Counted from the stretch's first letter, positions 2,623 through 22,774 are shown. The stretch is 64,000 nucleotides of DNA from a bacterium (GCA_021814695.1 JAKAHY010000002.1:8920-72919); one strand, 5' to 3'. A program made the numbers and translations. The notes: generated from the sequence alone by a model not told the origin.

Positions 2623-2672
2623 AATGCTTCTTGTGCAAGGAGTGCTTGCACTACGAAGCCTTGGCGAAGTAG

Positions 2673-3498: not shown

Positions 3499-5643
3499 AT
3501 GAAAAAATCTTCATTAATCGTGGTCATTTTGCTTGTTGTGGCAAGCGTAGGAATGACCGTCATCTTTTCAAATCAAGTGTCGATAAAGGGATTTCTATCG
3601 AGCGTTTATTCTACTGCATCAGGCAGAAATCATATACAGCTGGCAAACGCTCAGTCCTTGGGACAGGGGGTTGTAGTTTTTAAAGCGCAATTTGGCCATT
3701 TGGAAGCAACCGGCCAAGTTGTCTCCGGTATTTCCGGACTAGCGGGGCTGCCGGTGACAAAATTTGTTCCCGACAGAGACCTTTCGGATTCTGAAAAAAA
3801 GCAGGTTGAAGTAAACATCACCGAAGAGAACACCGTTTTCGGATTTATTGTGGCAAAAAACGTTTCATTAGGGCAGGGAATCGGTTTTAACATTCCCCAA
3901 GGAGAAGTTTATAACTACGGTTTTTATGTGAATTCCGACATCCTTCCTCAAGGATGGACATATAACTCTTCTTGCGTAGAGACGGGAGGAAATATTAAAT
4001 TATCTGCCGGCCAACAAAGCGAATGCACGATAGGTTTTTATCTGAAACCAACGCCTGCGCCGGTTACTCCTCCCGCTTCGACGTCCACTCCCGTCTCACC
4101 TCAGGAAGGAGCGTCAGGTACCGTTATTAGTGAAGATTCCGGTTCTGGATCGCTGCAGTTTGTAAAAAATATTTTGGACTTAAGTACGGGGTGGAAAAAC
4201 CCCGGATCGGATAAAATATTGGACGCAAAAATCGTTGAATTATACGGAAAGAAATTTCTTATTGTTTCGACTCAAAACAAACATTTGCTTGTTTACGATG
4301 CTTCAAACCAGTTTTCGCCGGTTCTTTTGAAAGATAATGATTTATCAGGCAGTAACGTGTCGGCGTTTTATCTTGTGGTTTTAGATAATTTCAATTACGT
4401 ATTTGCCTGGGGAGGAAACTCTGCCAACTACGGATCTTTTAAGATTGAACAAGACGGATCTGCGTCTCTGGTAAAAAGTTACAAACCTGACCAATATAGC
4501 GTTACTCAACCGAATTTGGTTTTCGGGTTGTTTAGAGGGTTAGACGGTAAAGCGTATGGATTTGGAGGGAACGGGGGCGATGGATGGCTAACTATTTATG
4601 ACGTGTCCGATCCGGCAAACATCAGCGAAATTGGATCATATCAAGATGGCTTAGTCGGGAATCACTGCGGCAATTATGGTCTGATTGGATTGGACAGGCC
4701 GCTTCAATGGAATACTTCTCAACAAGGGAACAAGCTTTATCTGGTAACTCATGCGGACCAGTGCGTCCAGCGGCTGCATACTTCCGGAGACGCCAGAATT
4801 TATATTTTTGACGTTTCTGATCCAAAAAATCCGCAGCTTTCCCATCAATATGAGCTTTCCGGTTCTTTTAACCACATACCTTCGGACGCGACTAAGGCCG
4901 AACAGACATTTCTTTTTGGCGGGATCGCCGACATTGCCGTTGATTCAAATTCGGGTAAGGTTTTTGATTTTTACAGGACGGTTTTTGATTGGCAGGGGCC
5001 ATCCTGGTCTCAGATAGCAAACATAGTGCATGGTACTTTGTTTAGATACAGAACCGGACTGGTCACTCTTTCACTGCAATCGGACGGTTCTCTAAAAGAA
5101 TTGTCGCGGGCTTTATTGTGCGAACAAAAGGGCCCAATGTATGATGGTGGCGGTCCGCAATATTATCGATGCGGCGACGTGGATGGAAACGACAAAAATA
5201 CCCAAGGCGGATATGATTATTCGGCAAGAAATTCTCAACAAAATTACAACGGAGTTTTTCTCCTCAGTGGGCCGGGAAATAGCGGTCAGGTGGGCTTACT
5301 AAGGAGTGATAATAGTTTTGTTGTCATTCCCGATACCGCCGGAGAGATGACTAAATTTAAGACGGCTATTAAAGATTCATCTTATTATTCGAATATCTAT
5401 AATCCCGCTATCAATGGTGTTGTGACCCAGGTTGACAGTAAAACATTTGCCATCTATCAATTTGATAGTTATTCGTTAAGCGTCGTTAAGGTTTTGTTGT
5501 CGCAATCTCTTGTGGGGGGATCGAAAAATCCCTCTCCTCCAGTGACCGGAGTTGCGCCTTCGGCAAACGTACCACTAACATCACCCGCATTTTCATTTAA
5601 TGCGCTCCTGAACATCTTCAGAAGGATACTTAACAACTACTAA
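3499..5643 (+). CDS. Cell-surface protein, paralog A: N-terminal signal-anchor, P/T-rich linker, LVIVD-like beta-propeller repeats, conserved C-terminal tail
   Basis: Repeats of the type LTIYDVSDPANISEIGSY and IYIFDVSDPKNPQLSHQY; N-terminal TM MKKSSLIVVILLVVASVGMTVIF; C-terminus ...SPAFSFNALLNIFRRILNNY. Confidence 0.8.
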   Translation: MKKSSLIVVILLVVASVGMTVIFSNQVSIKGFLSSVYSTASGRNHIQLANAQSLGQGVVVFKAQFGHLEATGQVVSGISGLAGLPVTKFVPDRDLSDSEKKQVEVNITEENTVFGFIVAKNVSLGQGIGFNIPQGEVYNYGFYVNSDILPQGWTYNSSCVETGGNIKLSAGQQSECTIGFYLKPTPAPVTPPASTSTPVSPQEGASGTVISEDSGSGSLQFVKNILDLSTGWKNPGSDKILDAKIVELYGKKFLIVSTQNKHLLVYDASNQFSPVLLKDNDLSGSNVSAFYLVVLDNFNYVFAWGGNSANYGSFKIEQDGSASLVKSYKPDQYSVTQPNLVFGLFRGLDGKAYGFGGNGGDGWLTIYDVSDPANISEIGSYQDGLVGNHCGNYGLIGLDRPLQWNTSQQGNKLYLVTHADQCVQRLHTSGDARIYIFDVSDPKNPQLSHQYELSGSFNHIPSDATKAEQTFLFGGIADIAVDSNSGKVFDFYRTVFDWQGPSWSQIANIVHGTLFRYRTGLVTLSLQSDGSLKELSRALLCEQKGPMYDGGGPQYYRCGDVDGNDKNTQGGYDYSARNSQQNYNGVFLLSGPGNSGQVGLLRSDNSFVVIPDTAGEMTKFKTAIKDSSYYSNIYNPAINGVVTQVDSKTFAIYQFDSYSLSVVKVLLSQSLVGGSKNPSPPVTGVAPSANVPLTSPAFSFNALLNIFRRILNNY

Positions 5644-5656
5644 AAATTTAAAATAA

Positions 5657-5685
5657 AGCCCCCTGTAAATACAGGGGGCTTTTTG
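5657..5685 (+). terminator. Rho-independent terminator
   Basis: GCCCCCTGtaaataCAGGGGGCttttt. Confidence 0.7.
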
Positions 5686-5687
5686 AA

Positions 5688-5698
5688 TGTGATATAAT
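5688..5698 (+). promoter_or_regulatory. Extended -10 promoter TGTGATATAAT (copy 2)
   Basis: gaaTGTGATATAATgaaacaaATGaaaaaaac. The first ATG (5697) lies inside the -10 box, so the start at 5709 is preferred. Confidence 0.45.
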
Positions 5699-5708
5699 GA
5701 AACAAATG

Positions 5709-8321
5709 AAAAAAACATTACTCATCGGGTTTATTGTGGTCGGCATTGTAAGCTTTTCGGCATTTACCGCGCATGCTCAGTCGGTCAATTATCTTAGTAA
5801 ATTTTTTGCAGATGTCTACGGAGCGTTTTTTGGGAATTCCCAAACGCAAAAAGTTGACGCCCAAACAGTGGGTAATGGAACACTTACTATTCATGCTCAG
5901 ATATGTCAGACGCTCGGGAATTTCGAAAATCCAAGCAGTGCGACCTGTTCTGGTACTCCTCGCGACCCCAATTCTACGGAGTCTCCGTTATTTGTTTATG
6001 ATGTCCAGCGCATAGTTGGGAATGGAGCGAGCGCTCAAGTTACCACAGTTCTTTCAGGTATCGGTCCCGGACAAAGTTATTCGTTACCGGCGAATACTCC
6101 AAACGCTAGTAATAATAACAGAGATGAGTACGTGATTGTGTTTAAGGGGGCACCGACAAATTATTTGTACGTGAGACAAGGAGGAAATTTTGATTTGCCC
6201 TATAAATTTTCAATTTCTTCCGGACAAAATACTCAAGTAAATATTCCTTATGTTATTTATACGGCGATTGAATCAACGGGTCCTGTTGGCACTACTGTTA
6301 CCGCCGATATTGTTGATGGCAATGGAAATTTTGTCAGAGCGCTGACGGCTTCAGAAATTCAATCGGTATCCTTTGACATCCAGCATTCGGTTCCGGCCAC
6401 CGGAGGATATGTCGGATCGCATGCGAACAATTTTGATACTCAAGTTTCTTCGGGAAAATTAAATACTTCATATCAGCTTGCGACCTATGTCCATTCCGGT
6501 TCAATTTTGACAAATATTAAGCCACCATCCGGTTACGTAGTCAGATCAATTAAGCCGGGAACATATTTTGATCCTACTGATGACGTTACTATTCATTTTA
6601 CCAAGTCTCCTGTTTCGTCTCAGGTTCAAAAAGTTGATCAAATGCTCTATGTTCCTAATGGAATTAGCTATGTAAAAAAAATAGCTCAAACATATTCGGA
6701 CAATGAATACAAATATTCGAATCTTGACGTTGATTTATTTGCTTATTATGGAAACAATAATCGTCCTTTTCCCTTGAACTGGACAGTTGCCAAATATTCG
6801 GGAGTTCCTTATTTGTTTATGAATGGAGCAGGAAAGATAGTTATTTATAATATTTCCGATCCTAAAAATCCCAAACAAGTTAGTGAATATGTTCTTTCCG
6901 GTTTGGAAAAATTTAATCAATACAAAGATCGTCAGGGAAATACTTATGGACAGTGTTCTCCTAACCAAGAAGGTACTCATGATTTTATAACTGGAGCCGG
7001 TAAAGTTTTTGCTCTTGATGATTCCCCTTATCTTTTGATTGACATTCAGAGACCGGGTGGGCCAGGCCCTGGAGGGACGGCAGTTTTGTCCTTAGATCCT
7101 TCAACTATGGCCATAACCGCCTATCCTCAATGGACCGAGTGTAACAGTGGTCAAGATACTCCCGGAACCGCTTTCGGAATGTATAAAGGAAGTGACGGAA
7201 ATACTTATTTTATTTCCCAATTCCCGAATAATGCATATGATACGGGTGGAGTAGATACCGGGAATATTGGTATTTACACAATCAATTCTGCTGGTATTGC
7301 CAATAAAGTTGTCGTTCTCAGCGGAATGTCCGGGATTGCTCCGAGTTTGGATTATTCTAATGGAACAATCTCTGTTGTTTCCGTTGGAAGTAAAAAATAT
7401 CTTATTGGTAATGGAAAATCATCTATCGCAAACATAAATTCGACCAGTGCACCAATTTATATTTACGATATTTCCAATCCAAAAAATATAATCAAAATCA
7501 ATCAACAGATCACGGTGTCTACGTCTGGGTCCGGCAGATTAAAAATTGACGAACAAGCCAATCGTATGTATGTTCAGTCATCCATTCCAAATCCTGCCGC
7601 AACATCAACTTCGTACACCATCCCCAAAACATTACCTATTTGGCAGGTATATGACTTGAGTGTTTTGCCCAGTACTCCAAAATTAATTGCTACTTATAAC
7701 AAACCAACCGACCTACTTAATTCAAGTCAAGTGAATGCTGATTTTTCTCAAATTACCAAGAGATTAAATATTGCATCGTCAGGTAATCTTGTGGATATAA
7801 ATAATTCTTCTTTCACTTACGGCGCCTACGGATATTCTTCTTCACTCCAGTTGATAAATGTTTCAAATAATTTAGCTTATATATCACTGTATACAAACGG
7901 AAAAAACCCTTGGGATACGATTGCCAATCAAGCCGGAGTAACGGACGGAAGCGAATACGGGACCAATGCTATTCAATTTATAGTTGACGTGTCCAATGCG
8001 TCCAGTCCCAAAATACTTGGAATGATATTCGGGCATACGGAATATTCTGCTTACGGACTTTCCGCCGGCGGATGGTTTGATGTTCCTCTTTACGGAAGTA
8101 TCTATAACTATAACGGATATATTTACCGAGCCAATTTCCGCATCGCTGATGTATGGAAATTGGGGAATCCTCCGGCCCAAAGTACGGGAGGTGCTGGAAG
8201 TGGGGCTGGTGCGAGCGGCACTGGAACTACCGAAGGAGGATCTGCGCCATCATCAGTTCAATCTCCATTTTCTTTCAGTTCTCTTTTGAAGATATTCCAG
8301 AGAGTGTTTAATAATCAATAA
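5709..8321 (+). CDS. Cell-surface protein, paralog B: cleavable signal peptide, LVIVD-like repeats, conserved C-terminal tail (the ORF track starts at 5697)
   Basis: Signal peptide MKKTLLIGFIVVGIVSFSAFTAHA|QS; repeats IVIYNISDPKNPKQVSEY and IYIYDISNPKNIIKI; G/S/T-rich linker; C-terminus ...SPFSFSSLLKIFQRVFNNQ. Confidence 0.8.
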   Translation, partial: KKTLLIGFIVVGIVSFSAFTAHAQSVNYLSKFFADVYGAFFGNSQTQKVDAQTVGNGTLTIHAQICQTLGNFENPSSATCSGTPRDPNSTESPLFVYDVQRIVGNGASAQVTTVLSGIGPGQSYSLPANTPNASNNNRDEYVIVFKGAPTNYLYVRQGGNFDLPYKFSISSGQNTQVNIPYVIYTAIESTGPVGTTVTADIVDGNGNFVRALTASEIQSVSFDIQHSVPATGGYVGSHANNFDTQVSSGKLNTSYQLATYVHSGSILTNIKPPSGYVVRSIKPGTYFDPTDDVTIHFTKSPVSSQVQKVDQMLYVPNGISYVKKIAQTYSDNEYKYSNLDVDLFAYYGNNNRPFPLNWTVAKYSGVPYLFMNGAGKIVIYNISDPKNPKQVSEYVLSGLEKFNQYKDRQGNTYGQCSPNQEGTHDFITGAGKVFALDDSPYLLIDIQRPGGPGPGGTAVLSLDPSTMAITAYPQWTECNSGQDTPGTAFGMYKGSDGNTYFISQFPNNAYDTGGVDTGNIGIYTINSAGIANKVVVLSGMSGIAPSLDYSNGTISVVSVGSKKYLIGNGKSSIANINSTSAPIYIYDISNPKNIIKINQQITVSTSGSGRLKIDEQANRMYVQSSIPNPAATSTSYTIPKTLPIWQVYDLSVLPSTPKLIATYNKPTDLLNSSQVNADFSQITKRLNIASSGNLVDINNSSFTYGAYGYSSSLQLINVSNNLAYISLYTNGKNPWDTIANQAGVTDGSEYGTNAIQFIVDVSNASSPKILGMIFGHTEYSAYGLSAGGWFDVPLYGSIYNYNGYIYRANFRIADVWKLGNPPAQSTGGAGSGAGASGTGTTEGGSAPSSVQSPFSFSSLLKIFQRVFNNQ

Positions 8322-8333
8322 TAATTTGAAACA

Positions 8334-8359
8334 ATCCCCCTAGCTGGGGGATTTTTTTG
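8334..8359 (+). terminator. Rho-independent terminator
   Basis: ATCCCCCtagctGGGGGATttttttt. Confidence 0.7.
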
Positions 8360-8366
8360 CAAGCAA

Positions 8367-8377
8367 TGTGATATAAT
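8367..8377 (+). promoter_or_regulatory. Extended -10 promoter TGTGATATAAT (copy 3)
   Basis: tttttttgcaagcaaTGTGATATAATaaaacaaataaaaataaccATG. Confidence 0.45.
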
Positions 8378-8396
8378 AAAACAAATAAAAATAACC

Positions 8397-10580
8397 ATGA
8401 AAAAATATTCATTAATTGTGATTATCTTACTTGTTGTTGCAAGTATAGGGATTACCGCTATCTTTTCAAGTCAAGTGTCGATAACCGGATTTCTTTTGAG
8501 CGTTTACTCAACTGTTTCGGGGAGCAATCAAATACAGAGAGTAAATGCACAAACGACAGGCCAAGGAACCATATTATTCCAAGGCCAATTCGGTCATCTT
8601 GAATCGACCGGAAAGGTCACTACCGGAATTTCGGGCTTATCCGGACTTCCGGTGATGAAATTTGTTAAAGACCGTGACCTATCTAGCGATGAAAAAAATC
8701 AGATTAGAGTGGATGTTATTGAACATAACACTCCTTTTGAATTTGTAGTTGCAAAAAATATTTCGCTTGGAGAGGGTGTTAATTTTAATATTCCCGTAGG
8801 TTCGACATATAGATATAGTTTTTATGTTCACCCCGACTCGATTCCCTCCGGATGGGTTTATTATTCCGGTTGTTTAGAGACCGATGGGAATGTTTCGGTA
8901 CTGGCCGGTCAGCAAAGTACTTGCAGCATAGGATTTTATTTAAAGCCCGAAACAATCTCACCCCCTCCGGTCACATCAACATCTACGATCACGTCTACTC
9001 CTTCGGTAGGTGTTTCGGGAACTGTTGTCGGTGAAGATGCCAGCGCAGGATCGTTGCAGTTTGTAAAAAACGTTTTGGATTTAAGCTCACAAAGAAAGGG
9101 CATTATTTATGGAGTTTTGGACGCAAGAACCGTTAATTTGTATGGAAAAAATCTTCTGATAGTTGCTAGAGGTGGAGCTTACTCTGCTACCACTCCAACC
9201 TGGCATATGCTTGTTTATGATATAACCGATCCGCTTGCCCCGGTTCTTTTGAAGGATAATGATATGTCCGGAAGTGGCATAATCTATAGTTCTCCAATGA
9301 CCGGTTTGGCAGTGCTTGATGGCTTTAATTATGTATTTGTCCGTGGAAATGTCGGTTACGGTTCGTTTAAAATTAATCAGGACGGAACTGCGTCTCTTGT
9401 GAAAAGCTATAAATATTCTGAAGTTCAGCAGATACAGACAGATTTAATCAGGGGATTGTTCAACGGTCTGGATGGAAATATATACGGCTACGGAGGGTTT
9501 GTGCAGGATGGAGGACTCGTGCTTTATAACGTTTCCGATCCCGCTAATATTATTCAAGTTGGAACGTATACTAATGGTCTTGAACCAGCGATTGCCATCT
9601 ATGGACAAATTGGATTGAATCGCCAGAGCACTTGGGGCGTTGTTAAAGAAGGAGGCAAACTTTATCTTATTGCTCATGCGGACCAGTTGGTTCTGCGCCT
9701 TCATACGGATTATGATGGAATGATTTATGTTTTTGATGTGTCCAATCCGGCAAGTCCGCAGCTTTCACATATCTATAAAATGTCCAGCTCCTTTAATCAC
9801 CTTCCTTCCGATATGACTTCGTATGAGAAGATGTTTCTTTACGGAGGAGAAGCTAATATATCGGTTGATCCAATATCAAATAGAGTATTTGATTTTTACA
9901 GAACGGTTTTTGATTGGCAGGGACCCAATCAGCTTAAGATAAAAGACATTCCTAAAGGAGCCTTGTTTCGTTATAGAAATGGAATAGCCGTTCTTTCAAT
10001 AGGAATCGATGGTTCTTTGAAATCAAGTTCCAGTAACATATTATTGTGCGAAAGAATAGCCATTCAAGATAATGGGACGTCAGGCGAAGATAAATGTGAT
10101 ACAAAGAGTCCCGAAACGGTTGGGGGATATTATAGTTCCAGTCTTTATGGAAACAGGAATCCTCAAGAAAATTATAACGGAGTATTTCTTCTTGGCGACG
10201 TGAATAATGTCGGACATGTAGGGCTGTTAAAAAGCGATGGTAGTTTTGTTATCATACCCGATCCAACCGGAGAAATGCTTAAATTCAAATCTGTCTTGGC
10301 TGACCCGTCGTATTATTCCGATCCTGGTTTTCGTTCGTCTCCAATCAATGGCATTGTCACTCAAGTTGATAGCAAAACCTTTGCAATATTTCAGATTGAT
10401 AATTATTCCATAAGTGTTACAAAGCTAAATCTATCACAATCCATAACGAGCGTAACACAAAAATCTTCGCCACCTACCACAAATGCCCCTAGTTCATTAA
10501 ATACATCATCTCCTACTCAGACTCCATTTTCCTTCAGCTCGCTCCTGAGAATATTTCAGAGGGTGTTCAATAGTCAGTAA
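8397..10580 (+). CDS. Cell-surface protein, paralog C (close paralog of A)
   Basis: N-terminal 230 aa nearly collinear with paralog A; repeats VLYNVSDPANIIQVGTY and IYVFDVSNPASPQLSHIY; C-terminus ...TPFSFSSLLRIFQRVFNSQ. Confidence 0.8.
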   Translation: MKKYSLIVIILLVVASIGITAIFSSQVSITGFLLSVYSTVSGSNQIQRVNAQTTGQGTILFQGQFGHLESTGKVTTGISGLSGLPVMKFVKDRDLSSDEKNQIRVDVIEHNTPFEFVVAKNISLGEGVNFNIPVGSTYRYSFYVHPDSIPSGWVYYSGCLETDGNVSVLAGQQSTCSIGFYLKPETISPPPVTSTSTITSTPSVGVSGTVVGEDASAGSLQFVKNVLDLSSQRKGIIYGVLDARTVNLYGKNLLIVARGGAYSATTPTWHMLVYDITDPLAPVLLKDNDMSGSGIIYSSPMTGLAVLDGFNYVFVRGNVGYGSFKINQDGTASLVKSYKYSEVQQIQTDLIRGLFNGLDGNIYGYGGFVQDGGLVLYNVSDPANIIQVGTYTNGLEPAIAIYGQIGLNRQSTWGVVKEGGKLYLIAHADQLVLRLHTDYDGMIYVFDVSNPASPQLSHIYKMSSSFNHLPSDMTSYEKMFLYGGEANISVDPISNRVFDFYRTVFDWQGPNQLKIKDIPKGALFRYRNGIAVLSIGIDGSLKSSSSNILLCERIAIQDNGTSGEDKCDTKSPETVGGYYSSSLYGNRNPQENYNGVFLLGDVNNVGHVGLLKSDGSFVIIPDPTGEMLKFKSVLADPSYYSDPGFRSSPINGIVTQVDSKTFAIFQIDNYSISVTKLNLSQSITSVTQKSSPPTTNAPSSLNTSSPTQTPFSFSSLLRIFQRVFNSQ

Positions 10581-10668: not shown

Positions 10669-13600
10669 ATGTTGAGAAATCTTAAACACTTTAATCCGCC
10701 GGAAATTGAGGAAAAAGTTTTACAGCTTTGGAAAGAAAAAGGGATATTTCAAAAAACACTCAAAGTTCCAAAAGGAAAAAAGGCCCTGCCTACCGGCAGG
10801 CAGGCAAAAATATTTCGGTTTTGGGAAGGTCCACCGACAGCCAATGGCCGTCCCGGAATTCATCATATTTTAGCCCGTTCTTTTAAGGACGTTGTTTTGC
10901 GTTTTAAAACGATGCAAGGGTATACGGTTCCCCGTAAGGGTGGTTGGGATACTCATGGATTGCCCGTTGAAATCCAGGTTGAAAAGCAGCTCGGATTTAA
11001 AACAAAAAAAGATATAGAAGATTACGGAATAGCCGCATTCAACCAAAAATGTAAAGAATCAGTCTGGCTTTATCAAAGCGAATGGGAAAAATTGACCGAA
11101 CGCATGGGTTTTTGGCTGGATTTGAAAAATCCTTATGTCACATACCACAAAGATTACATAGAGTCGCTTTGGTGGATCATCAAACAAGTTTGGGATAAAG
11201 GGTTGATGTATCAAGGGCATAAAGTGGTTCCTTGGTGTACTCGCTGCGGGACAGCTCTTTCTTCCCATGAATTGGCTCAAGGATACAAAGAGCTTACCGA
11301 TACTTCTGTTTACATAAAATTTAAACTTCTTCCAAAACAAAAAATCGGTTCTTTTATAACCGATGATAAAACATACATCTTATCCTGGACGACGACTCCT
11401 TGGACTTTGCCCGGAAACGTCGCTTTGGCAGTCGGAAATAAAATCAAATATATTGCGGCAAAAATCGGAGGAGAGACTTTTATTATTGCGGAAGATCTTG
11501 CCGGATCGGTTTTGGGATCGGAAAATCATAAAGTTATCAATGAATTTAAAGGCGAGTCGATTTCAGGGAAAGAATACGCCCCACTTTTTGAAATTGCGGC
11601 ATTAAAAAAACCGGAATCGTACAAGGTATATCCGGCTAAATTTGTGACAACCACCGATGGAACGGGGGTGGTGCACACGGCCGTAATGTACGGAGAGGAC
11701 GATTATAACCTGGGAAAAGAAGTCGGACTTCCTCAGCATCATACGGTTACCGAACAAGGAACTTTCACAAAAGACGTTAAAGGATTTGAAGGGATGTACG
11801 TCAAAGCCAAGGAGACCGAGGATAAGATACTAGATTATCTAAAGAAAAATAATTTCCTTTTGCAAACACAGGCTTATACCCATGAATATCCTCATTGCTG
11901 GAGATGTGGAACTCCGCTTTTGTATTACGCGCGCAGTTCATGGTTTGTAGCGATGTCGAAACTGAAAGATAATCTGATCGAAAGCAACCAGGGAACCAAC
12001 TGGGTTCCGGCACATATCAAAGAGGGCAGATATGGAGAATGGCTCTCCGAAATTAAAGATTGGAATTTTTCACGGGAAAGATATTGGGGCACCCCACTGC
12101 CGATCTGGACGTGCGAGAATTGTGGAAACCATAAAGCTGTTGGAAGTTATAAAGAGCTTTCGGAACATCTTCCTTCTAGTACCAACAGATATATTCTTGT
12201 CCGTCATGGAGAAGCGGGGCAAAATGTTTCCAATATAATCAACTGCGACCCCAAAGATAAGGATAAATACCCGTTAACAACCAATGGAATAATCCAGGCG
12301 AAGAGAACTTCCCTGAGCCTCAAGAAAAAAATAAAAAAAATAGACGCGATTATCTCGTCGGATTTTATTCGGACAAAGGAAACCGCAAAAATTATCGGCG
12401 ATGAATTTGGAATAAAGAAAATAATCACCGATCCGCTTTTGAGGGAAGTTAACATGGGAGATTTTAACGGGGACAATGTTTCTCGTTACCACGAGTACTT
12501 TTCTTCGCTTGAAGAAAAATTTATGAAACGGACCCCTAACGGAGAAAACCTCAGAGATCTGGCCGCAAGAAGCTACGATTTTATACAAAAATGTGAAAAA
12601 AAATACAGCGGGAAAACTATTGTTGTGGTAGGGCATGAATATCCGCTGTGGATGGCGGAGACCGTTCTTTCTGGATGGAGTCAGGAAGAATCGGTGTCGG
12701 AAAAAGAAAAAAGAGGTCCCGATTTTATAGAAGTCGGAGGATTTGATTCCGTTACTTTTGTTCCGGCATCAAGAGATGAACAGGGAATCTGTGATTATCA
12801 TAAGCCATATGTGGATTCAATCAGCATCCCTTGCGAAAAATGCGGAAAAAAGATGAATCGAGTTAAAGAAGTTGCCGACGTATGGTTTGATTCGGGGTCA
12901 ATGCCATTTGCCCAAGATCATTATCCTTTTGAGAAGGGTGATAAAGTCGGGAAAGCGCCCCAATCGTTTCCGGCCGATTATATCTGTGAGGCAGTCGATC
13001 AGACCCGCGGGTGGTTTTACACTCTTATGGCCGTCTCTACATTATTGGATTATGAAACGCCGTATAAAAACGTCGTTTGCCTAGGGCATATAAACGACAA
13101 GCATGGACAGAAAATGTCCAAATCAAAAGGGAACATTGTTGATCCATGGATGATAATAGATAAATATGGCATTGATGCCGTTAGGTGGTATTTTTACACC
13201 GTTAATGCTCCGGGGGAGCCGAAGAATTTTGACGAGAATGAGGTTGCTAAAGTACTGAGAAAATTCAGCATGACTCTTTATAATTCGTTCGCGTTTTTGG
13301 CGCTTTATGGAAAACAGAAGGTAAGTATCCAAAAGAAACCTTCATCGCCGAATATTTTGGACAGGTGGATTTTGGCAAGGCTAAATCAAACAACTGTCGG
13401 AGTTTCGGACAAAATGGACGCATATGATTTCTTGGCTACCGGACAAATAATAGAATCGTTTATTGACGATCTTTCCAGATGGTACATTCGCCGATCGAGA
13501 AAGAGATTCCAAAAAATTTCGGATAAATCGGATTGGGGTACGGCGACCGGTGTTTTGGCGTATGTTTTGGCCGAATTTTCAAAAGTGATCGCTCCCTTTA

Positions 13601-14223
13601 CTCCATTTTTCGCCGAAGCTCTTTACAGATCCATAGCCGAATTTTGTTCGTTTAGCGCAAAAGAATCCGTTCATCTCGAATCATGGCCGGAGGGCAGGGT
13701 TTTTAATGACGATGCGGTTATGTCGGAAGCCATGAAACAGATAAGAGACTACGCCAGTGCTGTTTTGGCAAAAAGAGCCGAAGTTGGAATCAAAGTGCGG
13801 CAGCCTTTGAGCTTGTTGAAAATAAGAAGCATTAAGTCTAAAGAAAAAGACTCTAAACAATTATTAGAAGTGTTAAGGGATGAAGTTAACGTCAAAGAAG
13901 TTGTGATTGATCCAAAAATAGAAAATGAATTTGAGTTGGATATCAACATCACTCCGGAACTTAAAGCCGAAGGAATTTTGAGGGAAATAGCCCGGACAAT
14001 TCAGGAATTGAGACAAAGTTCGGCATGTGTTCCCAAGGATAAAATAGAAGTTCGCATTTCCGGACCTGCCGACATTGAAGCGGTGGTCAAAAACGGACAA
14101 GCCACGCTTTGCCAATACGTTAACGCCAAAAATATTCTTTTCGGTAAGAGCGGTAAATTTGATTCCGAAATTGAAACCAAAATTGATTCGTCAAAAATTT
14201 GGATAGGTTTAAGAAAAATATAA
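10669..14223 (+). CDS. ileS: Isoleucyl-tRNA synthetase (1184 aa) with an inserted histidine-phosphatase-like domain
   Basis: HIGH region PTANGRPGIHHILARS; KMSKS motif QKMSKSKGN; CP1/editing region; CxxC..CxxC zinc motifs (CENCG ... CEKCG); about 205 extra residues between the zinc knuckles. Confidence 0.95.
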   Translation: MLRNLKHFNPPEIEEKVLQLWKEKGIFQKTLKVPKGKKALPTGRQAKIFRFWEGPPTANGRPGIHHILARSFKDVVLRFKTMQGYTVPRKGGWDTHGLPVEIQVEKQLGFKTKKDIEDYGIAAFNQKCKESVWLYQSEWEKLTERMGFWLDLKNPYVTYHKDYIESLWWIIKQVWDKGLMYQGHKVVPWCTRCGTALSSHELAQGYKELTDTSVYIKFKLLPKQKIGSFITDDKTYILSWTTTPWTLPGNVALAVGNKIKYIAAKIGGETFIIAEDLAGSVLGSENHKVINEFKGESISGKEYAPLFEIAALKKPESYKVYPAKFVTTTDGTGVVHTAVMYGEDDYNLGKEVGLPQHHTVTEQGTFTKDVKGFEGMYVKAKETEDKILDYLKKNNFLLQTQAYTHEYPHCWRCGTPLLYYARSSWFVAMSKLKDNLIESNQGTNWVPAHIKEGRYGEWLSEIKDWNFSRERYWGTPLPIWTCENCGNHKAVGSYKELSEHLPSSTNRYILVRHGEAGQNVSNIINCDPKDKDKYPLTTNGIIQAKRTSLSLKKKIKKIDAIISSDFIRTKETAKIIGDEFGIKKIITDPLLREVNMGDFNGDNVSRYHEYFSSLEEKFMKRTPNGENLRDLAARSYDFIQKCEKKYSGKTIVVVGHEYPLWMAETVLSGWSQEESVSEKEKRGPDFIEVGGFDSVTFVPASRDEQGICDYHKPYVDSISIPCEKCGKKMNRVKEVADVWFDSGSMPFAQDHYPFEKGDKVGKAPQSFPADYICEAVDQTRGWFYTLMAVSTLLDYETPYKNVVCLGHINDKHGQKMSKSKGNIVDPWMIIDKYGIDAVRWYFYTVNAPGEPKNFDENEVAKVLRKFSMTLYNSFAFLALYGKQKVSIQKKPSSPNILDRWILARLNQTTVGVSDKMDAYDFLATGQIIESFIDDLSRWYIRRSRKRFQKISDKSDWGTATGVLAYVLAEFSKVIAPFTPFFAEALYRSIAEFCSFSAKESVHLESWPEGRVFNDDAVMSEAMKQIRDYASAVLAKRAEVGIKVRQPLSLLKIRSIKSKEKDSKQLLEVLRDEVNVKEVVIDPKIENEFELDINITPELKAEGILREIARTIQELRQSSACVPKDKIEVRISGPADIEAVVKNGQATLCQYVNAKNILFGKSGKFDSEIETKIDSSKIWIGLRKI
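10785..10804. repeat. 20-nt GC-rich near-perfect palindrome CCTGCCTACCGGCAGGCAGG inside ileS (encodes ..ALPTGRQAK..)
   Basis: Inverted-repeat arms CCTGCCTA/CAGGCAGG around CCGG; the same palindrome recurs at 36984..37003 in csaA. Confidence 0.6.
12175..12790 (+). other. Inserted histidine phosphatase (phosphoglycerate-mutase-like, branch 1) domain within IleRS
   Basis: YILVRHGEAGQN (RHG catalytic motif with N at +7) ... VVGHEYPLW (second His); inserted between WTCENCG and YHKPYVDSISIPCEKCG. Confidence 0.6.
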
Positions 14224-16385: not shown

Positions 16386-17696
16386 ATGATAATTCGTAAT
16401 TACAAATCTCTGGCAACAACGAAACTTCGCAGAGACGGGCTAAAAATTATCGAGAGCGCTTATGAGGCGATTGATATCGAAAAACTTATTAAAAGACGTT
16501 TTTTGCTCAATGGACGAACTCTCGAGGTAAGGGACTTGGCCCAAAAAAACAAAATATTATTGGATAAATATAAGCGGGTTTTTGTAATTGGTTTTGGAAA
16601 GGGGTCATACGCGGCGGTTTCCAAAATGTCGGATATTTTGGGAAAGAAACTTTACGGAGCGATATCGCTTGATATTAATTCTTCGTACAAACCAAAAAGA
16701 CCAAATAAAAAAGTTACAGCTTTTTGGGGGACTCATCCTACGCCATCTAAGGAAAATGTAGAGGCGACAACGACAATAACTTCAATTGCCAGAGATGCGA
16801 ATAAAGACGATTTGATAATTTATTTTATAGGAGGGGGAGGCTCATCTCTTTTGTGCGGTTCTTTGGGAGAGTTGGATTATTCAGGATGGCTTTTTAAAAA
16901 ACTAACCAAGAAGGGAGCGACGATAGAGGAAATCAATACGGTCAGAAAACACATCTCGGAGGTTAAGGGCGGTAATCTGGCCAAGCTTACATATCCGGCA
17001 GACTCCTTTTCACTCATAGTTTCCGATGTTTGCGGCAATTCTTTGGGAACGATCGCTTCGGGCCCCACAATCTATGATAAATCAAAAGTTGAAGATGCTC
17101 TGATGGTGTTGAAAAAATATAAAATACCTGTCGGAAATATCATTTTCACAAAAACTCCCAAAGAAAAGAAATATTTTTCTAAATGTAAGTATTTTCTTCT
17201 GGCTTGTAATCAAGACGCTGTTTTAGCGATGGTAAATACGGCGAGAAAAATCGGATACGATGCTTCCATAGGCTCTCTTCTTGTTAATGGTGAGGCAAGG
17301 AAAGCTATTTTCCCTTTCATTAAAAAAACTAAAGTTGGTCAGGCAACAATTCTTGCCGGTGAAACAACGGTAGTGATAAGAGGAAGGGGAAAGGGCGGCA
17401 GAAATCAGGAGTTGGTACTTTCGGTTATCGCGGCGGCAAGTGATAAAAAAATAGATATGACAGGAACGTTTCTGGCCAGCTTTAATTCGGATGGATTTGA
17501 TAATACTCCGGTTGCCGGAGCGATTGCCGACGATGTTTCGTTTAAAAATTGTAAAAAAAGGAAACTTAATCCTGCCAAATATTTGAATAATAACGACTCG
17601 TTTACTTTCTTCCAAAAAACCGGAGATTTCATCCGGACAGAGAGGAGAGCATTTAATGTTGCCGATTTGATGCTGATTTTGATATCAGATAAATAA
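16386..17696 (+). CDS. Glycerate kinase (MOFRL family, glycerate 2-kinase)
   Basis: IGFGKGSYAAV...YFIGGGGSSLL...EINTVRKHISEVKGGNLAK (MOFRL/DUF4147 signature). Confidence 0.8.
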   Translation: MIIRNYKSLATTKLRRDGLKIIESAYEAIDIEKLIKRRFLLNGRTLEVRDLAQKNKILLDKYKRVFVIGFGKGSYAAVSKMSDILGKKLYGAISLDINSSYKPKRPNKKVTAFWGTHPTPSKENVEATTTITSIARDANKDDLIIYFIGGGGSSLLCGSLGELDYSGWLFKKLTKKGATIEEINTVRKHISEVKGGNLAKLTYPADSFSLIVSDVCGNSLGTIASGPTIYDKSKVEDALMVLKKYKIPVGNIIFTKTPKEKKYFSKCKYFLLACNQDAVLAMVNTARKIGYDASIGSLLVNGEARKAIFPFIKKTKVGQATILAGETTVVIRGRGKGGRNQELVLSVIAAASDKKIDMTGTFLASFNSDGFDNTPVAGAIADDVSFKNCKKRKLNPAKYLNNNDSFTFFQKTGDFIRTERRAFNVADLMLILISDK

Positions 17697-17711
17697 AAAA
17701 ATCGCTTAGTT

Positions 17712-17834
17712 CCGTGGACAACTGTGTGGATGTGAGACCTTTGCCAACAGCAAAGGAGTTCAGAATCTTTCAGAGGTGCACCTCAGCCGGAACCGAGATA
17801 TCCTATGCGTAGAAAAATTCCAAGATTGTCCACG
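17712..17834 (+). ncRNA. Putative structured RNA in the glycerate-kinase/ruvB intergenic region (identity unknown)
   Basis: Closing helix CCGUGGACAA...UUGUCCACG encloses two perfect hairpins, CCUUUGCcaacaGCAAAGG and GAGGUGCACCUC; no ORF with an RBS. Confidence 0.25.
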
Positions 17835-17980
17835 AAACCAAACGATCTTCTATAAGCTAAATATTATCATAAATAATGGAATTTGTCAAGCATGGGAACA
17901 TTCCATTATCTTTAAAATATTTACTTTTATAATGAGCTCTTTTTTGATACAGTTAGGAATAATAGTGGCATAAGTAAATC

Positions 17981-18979
17981 ATGTCAAGTGGAAAAACTGT
18001 GAACAATTCAACACTTCTGTCAAGAGATGAAACTGTAGATTCGGCATTGAGGCCGCTTAATTTTGGCGATTATATAGGACAGGATAGGGTGAAGGGAAAT
18101 CTTAGGATGATGATAGAAGCGGCCAAAAAAAGAACCGAGCCGATAGATCACCTGCTTTTTTACGGTCAGGCGGGGCTTGGCAAAACTACGCTGGCAATGA
18201 TTGTTGCCAAAGAAATGAATGCAAATATAAAAGTTACTTCTGGTCCCGTTCTGGAAAAAACCGGAGATTTGGCAGCGATTCTGTCGACTTTGGACGAAGG
18301 GGATATTCTTTTTATAGACGAAGCTCATAGAATAAACAGAACTATTGAAGAGATGCTTTATCCGGCGATGGAATCAAGAAAGCTTCACTTGGTTATTGGT
18401 AAGGGTCCGGCAGCTCGGATGATGACTCTGGATTTACCGCAATTTACTCTTATTGCGGCGACGACTCGGGTTAATCTTTTAACGTCTCCGCTTCGTTCCC
18501 GATTCGGGGGATTGTTTAAGCTTGATTACTATAATCCGGTAGATATCGAAAAAATTATCGAACGTTCGGCCAAGATATTGGGAGTTTCTATTAGCCCGGA
18601 GGCGATTACCATACTCGCGTCTGCGTCGCGATTTACGCCAAGAATAGCAAACCGTCTTTTAAAACGCGTTCGCGATCTGGTTGAGGTAAGCGATCGAAGA
18701 GTGGTCGACGAAAATGCGGCGCACAAAGTCCTTTCCATGTTTGAGATAGATGAGCTCGGACTCGAAGAGCATGACCGAAAGCTTCTTTACACTATTATAG
18801 AAAGATTTAATGGAGGCCCTGTCGGTCTGGGGTCAATCTCGGCGGCTTTAGGCGAAGACAGGGGGACTATAGAAGACGTCTACGAGCCCTATCTGCTTAA
18901 AATAGGACTTCTCTCCAGGACTTCTCAGGGAAGGATAGCTACAAAAGAGGCTTATAATCATTTAAAAAAAGACAGATAA
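17981..18979 (+). CDS. ruvB: Holliday junction branch migration helicase RuvB
   Basis: Walker A GQAGLGKTTLA; DEAH-like ILFIDEAH; AAA+ sensor motifs. Confidence 0.95.
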   Translation: MSSGKTVNNSTLLSRDETVDSALRPLNFGDYIGQDRVKGNLRMMIEAAKKRTEPIDHLLFYGQAGLGKTTLAMIVAKEMNANIKVTSGPVLEKTGDLAAILSTLDEGDILFIDEAHRINRTIEEMLYPAMESRKLHLVIGKGPAARMMTLDLPQFTLIAATTRVNLLTSPLRSRFGGLFKLDYYNPVDIEKIIERSAKILGVSISPEAITILASASRFTPRIANRLLKRVRDLVEVSDRRVVDENAAHKVLSMFEIDELGLEEHDRKLLYTIIERFNGGPVGLGSISAALGEDRGTIEDVYEPYLLKIGLLSRTSQGRIATKEAYNHLKKDR

Positions 18980-19041
18980 TTCCCCGTTCGAGGCCTCTTG
19001 TGATACAATATAAGCGTTATTAATAACGTTTTTTATTTATT

Positions 19042-22746: not shown

Positions 22747-22774
22747 ATATTTTCAGGTATGAGGCGACGGATTT

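What the first reader, a model, noticed from the sequence alone, without database searches (positions are those of the whole stretch)
12175..12790. Isoleucyl-tRNA synthetase carrying an inserted histidine phosphatase (PGAM-like RHG) domain
IleRS is 1184 aa, versus roughly 900-1050 typically. The extra roughly 205 residues lie between the two zinc knuckles (WTCENCG ... IPCEKCG) that normally sit about 30-50 aa apart. They carry the hallmark motifs of branch-1 histidine phosphatases: LVRHGEaGqN (catalytic His in RHG, with Asn at +7) and a second His in VVGHEYPLW.

There is no intein signature (no Cys/Ser at the N-terminal junction, no His-Asn at the C-terminal junction). This therefore looks like a genuine domain insertion of a phosphatase into an aminoacyl-tRNA synthetase, a combination I do not recognise as described. 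The function could be regulatory, or could involve hydrolysis of a phospho-intermediate or nucleotide.
Basis: partly seen in the sequence, partly recalled or inferred. Interest (0 to 1): 0.8.

Follow-up and report, generated by a model that had tools for sequence, protein, structure and literature searches.

The report
Histidine phosphatase nested inside IleRS
An essential protein-synthesis enzyme (isoleucyl-tRNA synthetase) of a tiny 'candidate phyla radiation' bacterium carries a complete, apparently active phosphatase spliced into a surface loop of its catalytic core; many relatives (and some valyl-tRNA synthetases) share this layout, and I found no paper describing it.

Summary
ORF 10669-14223 (+) is a 1184-aa type-2 IleRS. 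Residues about 506-700 are a branch-1 histidine phosphatase (Pfam His_Phos_1, E=4e-28). The domain sits in the tip of the CP3 zinc hairpin, where Thermus IleRS has a roughly 10-residue loop.

It is not a chimera, frameshift or intein. All 120 best homologues (52-83% identity, Paceibacteria and other Patescibacteria) carry it. Every catalytic residue is invariant, and AlphaFold folds it confidently.

New here:
- Peribacteria IleRS carry two tandem copies, and some IleRS have a second copy at another loop.
- Many Gracilibacteria/Peregrinibacteria ValRS carry 1-4 copies at the homologous CP3 site.
- Where IleRS lacks the insert, a stand-alone homologue often lies directly upstream of ileS, with stop and start 2 nt apart or overlapping.

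It is not the cell's phosphoglycerate mutase: an iPGM lies 8.5 kb downstream and the dPGM-specific residues are absent.

The substrate is unknown. My best guess (about 45%) is a phosphomonoesterase that works with the synthetase, acting on PPi or a nucleotide by-product, or on a phosphorylated tRNA end. The main rival (about 30%) is an unrelated housekeeping phosphatase. Five literature searches found no paper on it. I rate it a new variant of a known kind.

The parts
10669..14223 (+). ileS: 1184-aa type-2 isoleucyl-tRNA synthetase that hosts the insertion
   Evidence: ORF. TIGR00392 scores 859 bits against a cut-off of 621. Best PDB match is 1ILE, E=4.5e-242.
10855..10866 (+). Class I signature motif in its non-canonical GXHH form (G63-I-H-H66)
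   Evidence: Positions. G63 and H65 are at least 90% conserved and H66 is invariant. The motif's meaning comes from PMC10485003.
11236..11907 (+). CP core zinc knuckles (C190/C193 and C410/C413) bracketing the CP1 editing domain (WTTTPWT 240-246, GTGVVH 331-336)
   Evidence: Positions. These residues are invariant columns. The region aligns to the isolated Tth editing-domain structures 1WK8/1UE0.
12085..12183 (+). WGTPLPIW strand, first CP3 zinc knuckle (C482-E-N-C485), and the retained CP3 strand and helix (aa 473-505)
   Evidence: Positions. This stretch aligns to Tth 452-478. AF2 secondary structure shows E479-482, E488-490 and H494-498.
12184..12768 (+). Nested branch-1 histidine phosphatase domain (aa 506-700)
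   Evidence: Pfam PF00300 covers aa 509-673, E=4.3e-28. A profile built from 26 homologues covers aa 505-700. AF2 pLDDT is 89-98 over 501-700. Foldseek probability is 1.0 to 6S2Q, 4IJ6, 6E4B, 1H2E and 4QIH.
12202..12228 (+). RHG motif: R512, nucleophile H513, G514 ... N519
   Evidence: Positions. R512 and H513 are invariant in 118 and in 26 diverse homologues. N519 is 84% conserved.
12355..12459 (+). Second phosphate-binding Arg (S564...R568...T572) and the proton-donor Glu (L-R-E593)
   Evidence: S564, R568 and E593 are invariant. They are kept in every copy of the multi-copy proteins.
12538..12651 (+). G625-E626 ... R634 motif and the second catalytic His (VVGH656EYPLW)
   Evidence: E626, R634 and H656 are invariant.
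12769..12846 (+). Return linker (S701-R702...G706..D709-x-H711-x-P713) and the second CP3 zinc knuckle (C722-E-K-C725)
   Evidence: Positions. This stretch aligns to Tth 489-505. H711, P713, D716, C722 and C725 are invariant.
12877..13125 (+). Second half of the Rossmann fold: DVWFDSG, DQTRGWF, KMSKS (aa 815-819)
   Evidence: Positions. These are invariant columns.
13360..14217 (+). Anticodon-binding domain (aa 898-1049) and IleRS2-type C-terminal domain (DUF5915, aa 1090-1183)
   Evidence: Pfam PF08264 and PF19302.

Best explanation
The gene encodes a bifunctional enzyme. It is a complete type-2 (GXHH) IleRS of a Paceibacteria/Patescibacteria bacterium. An independently folding, roughly 195-residue branch-1 histidine phosphatase (HP) is nested in the tip of the CP3 zinc hairpin of its catalytic domain.

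SHOWN:
- the architecture and the exact insertion point;
- the fold;
- invariance of the full catalytic set (R512, H513 nucleophile, N519, R568, E593 acid, H656);
- intact synthetic and editing motifs in the host IleRS;
- presence of the insert across a whole bacterial lineage;
- extra copies of HP in some IleRS, and equivalent CP3 insertions in ValRS;
- stand-alone HP genes abutting ileS genes that lack the insert.

INFERRED:
1. HP is an active phosphomonoesterase of the PhoE/PspA/CobC/GpgP type. It is not a mutase.
2. It acts together with the synthetase rather than by accident of linkage.

My preferred mechanism is this. His513 attacks a terminal phosphoryl group of a species made or held at the synthetase, forms a phospho-His intermediate, and releases Pi. 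The candidate substrates are the PPi or nucleotide by-product of adenylate formation, or a 3'-phosphorylated or pyrophosphorylated tRNA acceptor end. Removing it would keep aminoacylation running in organisms with very reduced housekeeping metabolism.

I put about 45% on 'synthetase-coupled' overall. No single substrate is above about 20-25%.
For: Architecture and fold.

Catalytic residues are invariant in 118 close and 26 diverse homologues, and in every copy of the multi-copy proteins. The insert is as conserved as the anticodon-binding and C-terminal part of the protein (45% against 48% mean identity).

The association with class Ia synthetases recurs in several forms:
- All 120 best IleRS homologues carry HP.
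- Of the 150 best 50%-identity representatives found with the insert alone, 89 have class Ia synthetase sequence on one or both sides: IleRS in all but the ValRS P0145.
- Peribacteria IleRS have two tandem HP domains at the same site.
- P0179, P0249 and P0156 have a second HP in the loop before the anticodon-binding domain.
- 70 of 119 ValRS relatives of P0145 carry 1-3 HP domains. Most sit about 20 aa after WWGHRIP, the homologous CP3 site, and some sit in CP2. P0145 itself has at least 4.
- One protein is a TsaC/Sua5-HP fusion. TsaC is another enzyme that converts ATP to an adenylate plus PPi.

Split-gene (Rosetta-stone) evidence: stand-alone HP genes of 188-195 aa lie directly 5' of ileS genes that lack the insert. 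Stop and start are 2 nt apart (L081, L085), 10 nt apart (L087), or overlapping (L097). In L089 the two genes are convergent.

A bona fide iPGM is encoded in the same window, so HP is not simply the missing glycolytic mutase.
Against: - No biochemical data exist and no substrate can be read from the sequence.
- The nearest structures are small-molecule metabolic phosphatases at only 18-26% identity.
- The domain carries no consistent positive charge that would suggest RNA binding (median pI 7.3 in the fused forms).
- I know of no branch-1 histidine phosphatase reported to hydrolyse PPi or RNA 3'-phosphates (my own knowledge).
- The organism's CCA-adding enzyme already has an HD domain, which in E. 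coli repairs tRNA 3' ends.
- The stand-alone HP next to ileS could be a relic. An old ileS(HP) gene may have been displaced in place by a foreign ileS: the IleRS in split loci is only 34-44% identical to this one. That would show HP is needed, not that it needs IleRS.
- ValRS genes that lack HP have no stand-alone HP gene beside them.
- The TsaC fusion is a singleton.
- In the closest relatives, the neighbouring gene is a glycerate 2-kinase, which hints at phosphoglycerate metabolism instead.
- The orientation of the HP pocket relative to the IleRS active site could not be measured, because no coordinates were available.
Confidence: 0.45

Rival explanations
1. HP is an autonomous housekeeping or metabolic phosphatase, acting for example on a phosphoglycerate-like or sugar-acid phosphate, phosphoserine, or a nucleotide. 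It merely rides inside an abundant essential gene. The link to IleRS and ValRS reflects a permissive surface loop and history, not shared chemistry.
For: - The closest sequence and structure relatives are PhoE, phosphoserine phosphatases, CobC, GpgP and small dPGMs.
- Glycerate 2-kinase lies directly 3' of ileS(HP) in relatives that are 60-69% identical, and 2 kb downstream here. PEP synthase, enolase and iPGM follow.
- Stand-alone HP genes exist and so can work without covalent attachment.
- CP3 is a structurally variable module with no assigned function (PMC7191050; PMC10810186).
- The 'relic of gene displacement' scenario explains the adjacency to ileS without any coupling.
Against: - It has to explain several things as chance: repeated insertion at three different loops of two paralogous synthetases, arrays of 2-4 intact copies, and abutting or overlapping HP-ileS gene pairs in several distinct families.
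- The glycerate-kinase neighbourhood is absent from the 32 more distant ileS(HP) loci.
Confidence: 0.3
2. HP is a regulatory or protein phosphatase. In this reading it either dephosphorylates the synthetase itself, for instance reversing inhibitory Ser/Thr/His phosphorylation by HipA-like kinases, or it senses a phospho-metabolite to tune aminoacylation.
For: - From my own knowledge, branch-1 members include the protein phosphatases SixA, PGAM5 and Sts-1, and HipA-family kinases inactivate GltX and TrpS.
- Insertion at several loops and in several copies would suit protection of the host enzyme in cis.
- SixA gives a weak partial NCBIfam hit, 34 bits against a cut-off of 74.5.
Against: - There is no specific similarity to the protein-phosphatase subfamilies. 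The top fold matches are small-molecule enzymes.
- No kinase gene is linked in any locus examined.
Confidence: 0.1
3. HP is a self-protection module. It would hydrolyse a phosphorylated natural inhibitor aimed at IleRS or ValRS, by analogy with GNAT or HIT enzymes that detoxify aminoacyl-nucleotide antibiotics.
For: - The host IleRS carries the GXHH motif that confers mupirocin hyper-resistance, so this IleRS lineage shows a signature of antibiotic pressure.
- NCBIfam has a separate model for IleRS carrying a GNAT domain (NF040702).
- One of two MccH-like Parcubacteria HIT enzymes tested protected E. coli against a microcin C form; the other was inactive (PMC7157772).
Against: No phosphomonoester inhibitor of IleRS or ValRS is known to me. 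Histidine phosphatases need a terminal phosphoryl group, which adenylate mimics lack.
Confidence: 0.05
4. HP is the cell's cofactor-dependent phosphoglycerate mutase.
For: - The best NCBIfam hit is the archaeal small dPGM model (93 bits).
- The best PDB sequence hit is the S. pombe PGAM 1FZT.
- Glycolytic genes lie nearby.
Against: - The score is far below the model's cut-off of 225.
- In the alignment to 1FZT the mutase's E-R-Y-Y-G, W-R-R and H-G-N motifs read E-V-N-M-G, M-K-R and H-E-Y here. From my own knowledge these correspond to dPGM substrate-binding residues R90, Y92, R116/R117 and N186 (E. coli numbering).
- A canonical iPGM passes its equivalog cut-off at 22789-24330 (TIGR01307, 549 bits against 331).
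Confidence: 0.03
5. The domain is catalytically silent and serves only as a structural or tRNA-binding appendage.
For: Many idiosyncratic synthetase insertions are non-catalytic (general knowledge).
Against: All eight active-site positions are invariant or nearly so in hundreds of sequences and in every duplicated copy, while the rest of the domain drifts to 33% identity. There is no basic surface signature.
Confidence: 0.03
6. The insertion is an artefact (assembly chimera or frameshift), or an intein or other mobile element that is removed from the mature protein.
For: None beyond the unusual length of the protein.
Against: - The ORF is continuous with uniform G+C.
- The same architecture appears in more than 120 independent assemblies.
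- Pfam gives no Hint or intein hit.
- The junctions lack the Cys/Ser...His-Asn-Cys/Ser/Thr signature...PSSTN|RYILVRHG... and ...RDEQGICDYHKPY....
- AF2 packs the domain confidently on short linkers, with pTM 0.83.
Confidence: 0.01

Closest known systems
Type-2 (eukaryote-like, mupirocin-resistant) bacterial IleRS, e.g. Thermus thermophilus IleRS (PDB 1ILE/1JZQ) and Priestia megaterium IleRS2 (8C8U-8C9D)
   Same: - The full-length alignment has E=1e-242 to 1e-228.
- It has the same CP core, CP1 editing domain, CP2, zinc-knuckle CP3, KMSKS motif, anticodon-binding domain and DUF5915 C-terminus.
- It has the GXHH signature variant described for hyper-resistant IleRS2.
   Different: The tip of the CP3 hairpin is a loop of about 10 residues in Tth (478-489). 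Here it is replaced by a phosphatase domain of about 200 residues, giving 1184 aa against 821-1032 aa.
Small branch-1 histidine phosphatases: PhoE/YhfR (1H2E, 1EBB), Hydrogenobacter and Entamoeba phosphoserine phosphatases (4IJ5, 6M1X), CobC (6E4B, 6NRU), mycobacterial GpgP Rv2419c (4QIH)
   Same: - Same fold: Foldseek probability 1.0, target-normalised TM 0.68-0.76.
- Same catalytic residues, and the same 'LRE...G.[FW].G', 'GES...R' and 'sH' motifs.
   Different: - Only 18-26% identical.
- It reaches no NCBIfam equivalog cut-off.
- It is not a free protein but is nested in another enzyme's catalytic domain.
- It has clade-specific conserved positions (N506, Y508, Y607, F618, W661, W670) of unknown meaning.
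IleRS with an added GNAT acetyltransferase domain (NCBIfam NF040702, 'ileS_w_GNAT')
   Same: It is another IleRS lineage that carries an extra enzymatic domain, and it shows that IleRS tolerates such additions.
   Different: The extra domain is of a different family. This protein scores 303 bits against that model's cut-off of 1999, so it is not a member. I did not examine where the GNAT domain sits.
Bifunctional proteins built on a histidine-phosphatase domain: PFK-2/FBPase-2 and mycobacterial RNase H/CobC-like acid phosphatase Rv2228c (NCBIfam NF005567)
   Same: An HP domain is covalently joined to a second catalytic domain. NF005567 gives a partial hit of 56-60 bits on the HP part.
   Different: Those are end-to-end fusions. 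Here the HP is inserted within the partner's fold. In PFK-2/FBPase-2 the two activities act on the same metabolite. No shared substrate is known here.
CP1 editing domain of class Ia synthetases
   Same: It is a hydrolytic domain nested in the Rossmann fold of IleRS, ValRS and LeuRS, and it works on the synthetase's own products. This is the functional analogy behind the preferred explanation.
   Different: CP1 is universal, has an unrelated fold, and hydrolyses aminoacyl esters. HP is lineage-restricted, sits in CP3, and has phosphoryl-transfer chemistry.

Membership tests
Isoleucyl-tRNA synthetase (class Ia; TIGR00392) | Whole-protein score above the curated equivalog cut-off | tested here: met
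   859.4 bits against a cut-off of 621.4. ValRS models score about half as much.
Isoleucyl-tRNA synthetase (class Ia; TIGR00392) | Class I signature motifs (HIGH-type and KMSKS) and CP1 editing motifs | tested here: met
   GIHH at 63-66 (the GXHH variant), KMSKS at 815-819, WTTTPWT at 240-246 and GTGVVH at 331-336. These are invariant or nearly invariant columns.
Isoleucyl-tRNA synthetase (class Ia; TIGR00392) | Isoleucine activation and tRNAIle charging activity | not testable with these tools
   Needs an enzyme assay. No second ileS lies in the 64-kb window.
IleRS2 subtype with GXHH motif (PMC10485003) | First and third positions of HXGH swapped; IleRS2-type C-terminus | tested here: met
   G63-I-H-H66. 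The C-terminal domain is DUF5915, and the best PDB relatives are IleRS2 enzymes. Mupirocin resistance itself was not tested.
Histidine phosphatase superfamily, branch 1 (Pfam PF00300) | Score above the Pfam gathering threshold | tested here: met
   98.7 bits against 21.7, E=4.3e-28, aa 509-673.
Histidine phosphatase superfamily, branch 1 (Pfam PF00300) | Catalytic core: RHG nucleophile His, two Arg, a second His, and an acidic proton donor | tested here: met
   R512, H513, R568, E593 and H656 are invariant, and N519 is 84% conserved.
Histidine phosphatase superfamily, branch 1 (Pfam PF00300) | Alpha/beta fold of the superfamily | tested here: met
   The AF2 model has pLDDT 92.7. Foldseek probability is 1.0 to more than 50 solved members.
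Histidine phosphatase superfamily, branch 1 (Pfam PF00300) | Phosphatase or mutase activity through a phospho-His intermediate | not testable with these tools
   Needs biochemistry.
Cofactor-dependent phosphoglycerate mutase (dPGM) | Equivalog score and dPGM-specific substrate residues (E. coli R90, Y92, K100, R116/R117, N186) | tested here: not met
   NF038349 scores 89-93 bits against a cut-off of 225, and TIGR01258 scores 23 against 82. In the alignment to 1FZT, ERYYG reads EVNMG, WRR reads MKR and HGN reads HEY. The mapping of these motifs to the E. coli residue numbers rests on my own knowledge. A separate iPGM is present.
Named HP phosphatases: CobC, PspA/PSP1, GpmB, SixA (NCBIfam equivalogs) | Score above the curated cut-off | tested here: not met
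   All are below cut-off: CobC 64 against 163, PspA 57 against 350, GpmB 64 against 261, SixA 34 against 74.5.
Intein | Hint domain; N-terminal Cys/Ser; C-terminal His-Asn followed by Cys/Ser/Thr | tested here: not met
   Pfam gives no Hint or intein hit. The junction residues are not conserved in that pattern.
IleRS with GNAT domain (NF040702) | Score above the cut-off (1999 bits) | tested here: not met
   302.6 bits, from the IleRS parts only.

The most novel reading that the evidence does not exclude
The histidine-phosphatase module is a dedicated, previously unrecognised accessory activity of class Ia synthetases (IleRS and ValRS) in Patescibacteria. It would be a third catalytic site alongside synthesis and editing. 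It would act on a phosphorylated species at the synthetase, either by removing a 3'-phosphate or pyrophosphate block from the tRNA acceptor end, or by hydrolysing PPi or a nucleotide by-product where it is made. Depending on lineage, the module would be supplied in cis (nested in CP3) or in trans (from a gene translationally coupled to ileS).
Probability: 0.35. Interest if true: 0.85.

Novelty: new variant of a known kind. Interest (0 to 1): 0.66.

Why it matters
Aminoacyl-tRNA synthetases are among the best-studied enzymes. Their catalogued insertion modules list CP3 as a 25-77-residue zinc finger with no assigned function (PMC10810186).

Here CP3 hosts a whole second enzyme, and this holds across a large part of the Candidate Phyla Radiation. 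The same solution appears in the paralogous ValRS. In some lineages a split-gene version sits next to ileS.

If the phosphatase acts on a product or substrate of aminoacylation, it would define a new kind of synthetase-associated activity, and the question can be tested directly with recombinant protein. If it is an unrelated housekeeping enzyme, it is still a striking case of gene economy in ultra-small genomes. It also warns that automated pipelines may count this domain as 'phosphoglycerate mutase' in metabolic reconstructions of these organisms. One stand-alone homologue is already labelled 'probable phosphoglycerate mutase', and another 'isoleucyl-tRNA synthetase'.

Tried and rejected
1. 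Antisense ORF 12274-12636 (120 aa). It lies wholly inside the conserved HP coding region and I treated it as spurious.
2. HP as the cell's PGAM. Rejected: an iPGM is present, the dPGM residues are absent, and the scores are below cut-off.
3. HP linked to ArgRS because of the argS-HP-ileS order. Rejected: argS-ileS synteny is general in Paceibacteria whether HP is inside or outside ileS.
4. Glycolytic neighbourhood as a conserved context. It holds only in close relatives. It is absent from 32 more distant ileS(HP) loci.
5. Charge or pI of the domain as a sign of RNA binding. Uninformative.
6. Neighbour-joining tree of 162 HP domains, to decide whether stand-alone forms are ancestral or derived. 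The tree is star-like and unresolved. It shows only that stand-alone and inserted forms intermingle and that tandem copies in Peribacteria are old duplicates.
7. Looking for a stand-alone HP beside valS genes that lack the insert. None found.
8. Looking for more TsaC/Sua5-HP fusions in metagenome contigs. None found; the five hits were IleRS inserts or stand-alone genes.
9. Five full-text literature searches for any description of a synthetase plus histidine phosphatase. Nothing relevant. A search for CPR pyrophosphatase content gave nothing usable.
10. Measuring the geometry of the HP pocket relative to the IleRS active site. Not possible, because the structure tool returns no coordinates.
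Full report
**The observation.** The window holds one uninterrupted ORF at 10669-14223 (+) encoding 1184 aa. It is an isoleucyl-tRNA synthetase: NCBIfam TIGR00392 scores 859 bits against a cut-off of 621. The next-best models are the mupirocin-resistant type-2 enzymes MupA and MupB. Pfam finds tRNA-synt_1 in two stretches, with His_Phos_1 (PF00300) between them at aa 509-673 (E=4.3e-28, 98.7 bits against a gathering score of 21.7). Anticodon_1 and DUF5915 follow. G+C of the insert (0.407) equals that of the rest of the gene (0.415).

**The insertion point.** In the alignment to T. thermophilus IleRS (1ILE, E=4.5e-242), query residues 6-499 pair with Tth 6-478 and query 709-1038 with Tth 489-818. 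About 200 residues therefore replace a loop of about 10 residues that lies between the Tth zinc ligands Cys461/464 and Cys502/504. The literature calls this module CP3. [quoted passage not shown] A catalogue of synthetase insertion modules lists CP3 as a 'cysteine-rich zinc finger', 25-77 aa, with no function given (PMC10810186). In a scan of species-representative genomes, non-CPR type-2 IleRS (Thermus, Chloroflexi, Actinobacteria, Clostridia, archaea) have 68-73 aa between RYWG and DVWF. This protein and loci L001-L027 have about 242-283 aa there.

**It is real, folded and under selection.**
- All 120 best homologues (52-83% identical, 1146-1373 aa full length plus two truncated entries) carry PF00300. 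Where named, they are Paceibacterota, Parcubacteria, Wolfebacteria, Jorgensenbacteria, Liptonbacteria or Minisyncoccia.
- In alignments of 118 close and 26 diverse relatives, R512, H513, S564, R568, E626 and H656 are invariant. E593 and R634 are invariant in the 118 and at least 90% conserved in the 26.
- The domain as a whole drifts to 33% identity. Its mean is 45%, the same as the anticodon-binding and C-terminal part at 48%.
- AlphaFold2 on the full protein gives pLDDT 91.4 and pTM 0.83, with block means of 89-98 over residues 501-700. The excised CP3+HP segment gives pLDDT 92.7 and pTM 0.89.
- Foldseek places that model among small branch-1 phosphatases: a mycobacterial hydrolase (6S2Q), phosphoserine phosphatases (4IJ6, 6M1X), CobC (6E4B), PhoE (1H2E) and GpgP (4QIH). 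Probability is 1.0, target-normalised TM about 0.7, and identity 18-26%.
- There is no Hint or intein match and no intein-type junction.
- The host enzyme keeps its class I motifs, both zinc sites and the CP1 editing motifs.

**Wider distribution, which changes the picture.**
- A search of 1.8 billion representatives with the insert alone gave 645 hits at E<=1e-10. Of the best 150, 89 have class Ia synthetase sequence on one or both sides (IleRS in all but the ValRS P0145), with N-terminal identity to this protein down to 34% among the IleRS. The other 61 have none, and 47 of those look like complete proteins of 170-235 aa.
- Peribacteria/Peregrinibacteria IleRS (L028-L032, 1326-1491 aa) have the domain in the same site: two tandem copies in four of the five loci and one in L030.
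- Three IleRS representatives (P0156, P0179, P0249) have a second HP domain in a different loop, between the stem-contact helix and the first helix of the anticodon-binding domain.
- P0145 is a ValRS (valS models 380-411 bits, ileS 199). It has one HP in the CP2 region and at least three after WWGHRIPVWY.
- Searching with P0145 showed this is common. Of its 119 ValRS relatives listed, 70 carry one to three HP domains, nearly always about 20 residues after the WWGHRIP motif. That is the site homologous to the IleRS insertion. The named ones are Gracilibacteria or Peregrinibacteria.
- Every complete copy in every multi-copy protein I examined in detail retains the core catalytic residues; P0207's first copy has Gln at the E626 and R634 positions, and P0145's contig-truncated fourth copy reads Gly at E593.
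- One protein fuses TsaC/Sua5 to the same kind of HP. A metagenome scan found no second example.

**A split-gene counterpart.**
- The stand-alone family around P0150 (named Candidatus Staskawiczbacteria, 188-195 aa, about 38% identical to the insert) lies directly upstream of an ileS gene that lacks the insertion (972-1002 aa).
- That ileS scores 673 bits on TIGR00392. It aligns to this IleRS at 8-497 and 711-1184, with only 16 residues in between.
- Stop and start are 2 nt apart in L081 and L085. They are 10 nt apart in a second family (P0146, L087) and overlap (ATGTTAA) in L097. In a third family the two genes are convergent (L089).
- Two other stand-alone genes are not next to ileS. One sits beside a gene whose N-terminal sequence I recognise as an archaeal-type ProRS (no tool confirmed this), and the other has no informative neighbour.
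- argS precedes ileS throughout Paceibacteria, so its presence in these loci is only synteny.
- The IleRS of the split loci is only 34-44% identical to the inserted type. The adjacency may therefore be a relic of in-place displacement of an old ileS(HP) gene. Even so, the phosphatase was kept, which argues that its activity matters in its own right.

**What it is not.** It is not the organism's phosphoglycerate mutase.
- The best NCBIfam hit is a small archaeal dPGM model, but at 93 bits against a cut-off of 225.
- In the alignment to the S. pombe mutase, its ERYYG, WRR and HGN motifs, which by my own knowledge hold the dPGM-specific substrate residues, read EVNMG, MKR and HEY here.
- A canonical cofactor-independent PGAM lies at 22789-24330 (TIGR01307, 549 bits against 331), next to enolase and PEP synthase.
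- It reaches no named equivalog (CobC, PspA, GpmB, SixA).

**How it most likely works.**
- *Shown:* a second, complete catalytic centre of the histidine-phosphatase type is tethered by short linkers to the tip of CP3 of an otherwise normal IleRS.
- *Established chemistry of the superfamily:* His513 would attack a terminal phosphoryl group held by R512, R568, N519 and H656. Glu593 would protonate the leaving group, and water would then release Pi.
- *Inferred:* the activity serves the synthetase. The arguments are the recurrence of the association (three loops, two paralogous synthetases, arrays of intact copies, abutting or overlapping HP-ileS gene pairs, and a fusion to another adenylate-forming enzyme) and the presence of an independent PGAM.
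- *Candidate substrates:* the PPi or nucleotide by-products of adenylate formation, or a phosphorylated or pyrophosphorylated tRNA 3' end. I cannot rank these with confidence.
- *Against:* the nearest structures are metabolic phosphatases. There is no RNA-binding charge signature. The CCA-adding enzyme here already has an HD domain. A glycerate 2-kinase sits directly after ileS(HP) in the closest relatives, although not in 32 more distant loci.
- *Probabilities:* about 45% synthetase-coupled, 30% autonomous housekeeping phosphatase, 10% regulatory or protein phosphatase, 5% inhibitor detoxification, and a few percent each for mutase, silent appendage or artefact.

**Novelty.** Both parent families are textbook, and the proteins are already in public databases with the Pfam domain computed. 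Five full-text searches found no paper that describes a synthetase carrying a histidine-phosphatase domain. Synthetases with extra catalytic domains are a known kind: CP1 editing domains, and an IleRS with a GNAT domain that has its own NCBIfam model. I therefore rate this a new variant of a known kind. Interest is moderately high, because the trait is ancient, lineage-wide, repeated in ValRS, and directly testable.

**Limits.** The structure tool returned no coordinates, so the orientation of the phosphatase pocket is unknown. Whole-genome phyletic profiles could not be built with these tools. Some MAG labels in that scan, such as 'Saccharibacteria' or 'Gammaproteobacteria', are probably unreliable.

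Noticed in passing
window 10855-10866 (aa 63-66 of IleRS): The class I HIGH motif is the swapped form G-I-H-H, and it is conserved in the whole family. In IleRS2 this GXHH variant was shown to give mupirocin hyper-resistance (PMC10485003). These Patescibacteria IleRS are therefore predicted to be highly mupirocin-resistant.
   Followed up: partly
proteins P0145 and P0394-P0511 (ValRS of Gracilibacteria/Peregrinibacteria): Valyl-tRNA synthetases carry 1-4 catalytically intact histidine-phosphatase domains. Most are at the CP3 site homologous to the IleRS insertion, and some are in CP2. Of the 119 relatives listed, 70 have at least one.
   Followed up: partly
loci L081-L086, L087, L089, L097: Stand-alone homologues of the inserted domain (188-195 aa) lie directly next to ileS genes that lack the insertion. 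Stop and start are 2 nt apart, 10 nt apart, or overlapping (ATGTTAA in L097). In L089 the two genes are convergent.
   Followed up: yes
proteins P0156, P0179, P0249 (IleRS, 1379-1419 aa): A second histidine-phosphatase domain is inserted at a different place, in the loop between the stem-contact helix and the first helix of the anticodon-binding domain (just before ...LDRW...).
   Followed up: partly
L088 977-2140 (protein P0173): A TsaC/Sua5 (threonylcarbamoyl-AMP synthase) domain is fused to the same type of histidine phosphatase. It is a single example on a 3.7-kb contig, and a metagenome scan found no other.
   Followed up: partly
window 16386-24330; L092 13715-15025; L094 13562-14878: There is a cluster of glycerate 2-kinase (MOFRL type), RuvB, PEP synthase, enolase and cofactor-independent PGAM. 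In relatives that are 60-69% identical, the glycerate kinase is the gene immediately 3' of ileS(HP). Here a transporter and a GH1 glycosidase are inserted between them.
   Followed up: partly
window 2672-2988 (-): ARAGORN predicts a tmRNA whose tag peptide is EAYPRKALSYP. This does not end in the usual ...LAA-type tail.
   Followed up: no
window 3499-10580 (+): Three consecutive large ORFs (714, 874 and 727 aa) lie just upstream of ileS. Two of them have only weak LVIVD-repeat hits. The one directly upstream begins with a hydrophobic, signal-peptide-like N-terminus and has Ser/Thr/Pro-rich stretches (read from its sequence). Similar unannotated 711-781-aa genes precede ileS in L092-L094.
   Followed up: no
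window 32150-33643 (+): A CCA-adding enzyme with an HD domain (Pfam HD, E=4e-10). In E. coli this domain has phosphatase and 2',3'-cyclic phosphodiesterase activity on tRNA ends, which bears on the tRNA-end-repair hypothesis.
   Followed up: no
window 50343-50960 (+): A HIT-family protein with no NCBIfam match. One of two MccH-like Parcubacteria HIT enzymes tested gave resistance to a microcin C form, the other was inactive (PMC7157772). Whether this one belongs to that group was not checked.
   Followed up: no
window 38091-45487 (+) and 29234-30157 (+): Metal-homeostasis genes: a cation-efflux (CDF) transporter, a chromate transporter, an ArsP-type permease, two ZnuA-like binding proteins and a ZnuBC-like ABC system.
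   Followed up: no
L094 16914-18276: A bAvd-like gene and a reverse transcriptase (RVT_1) lie about 3 kb from ileS(HP) in a relative. This pairing suggests a diversity-generating retroelement.
   Followed up: no
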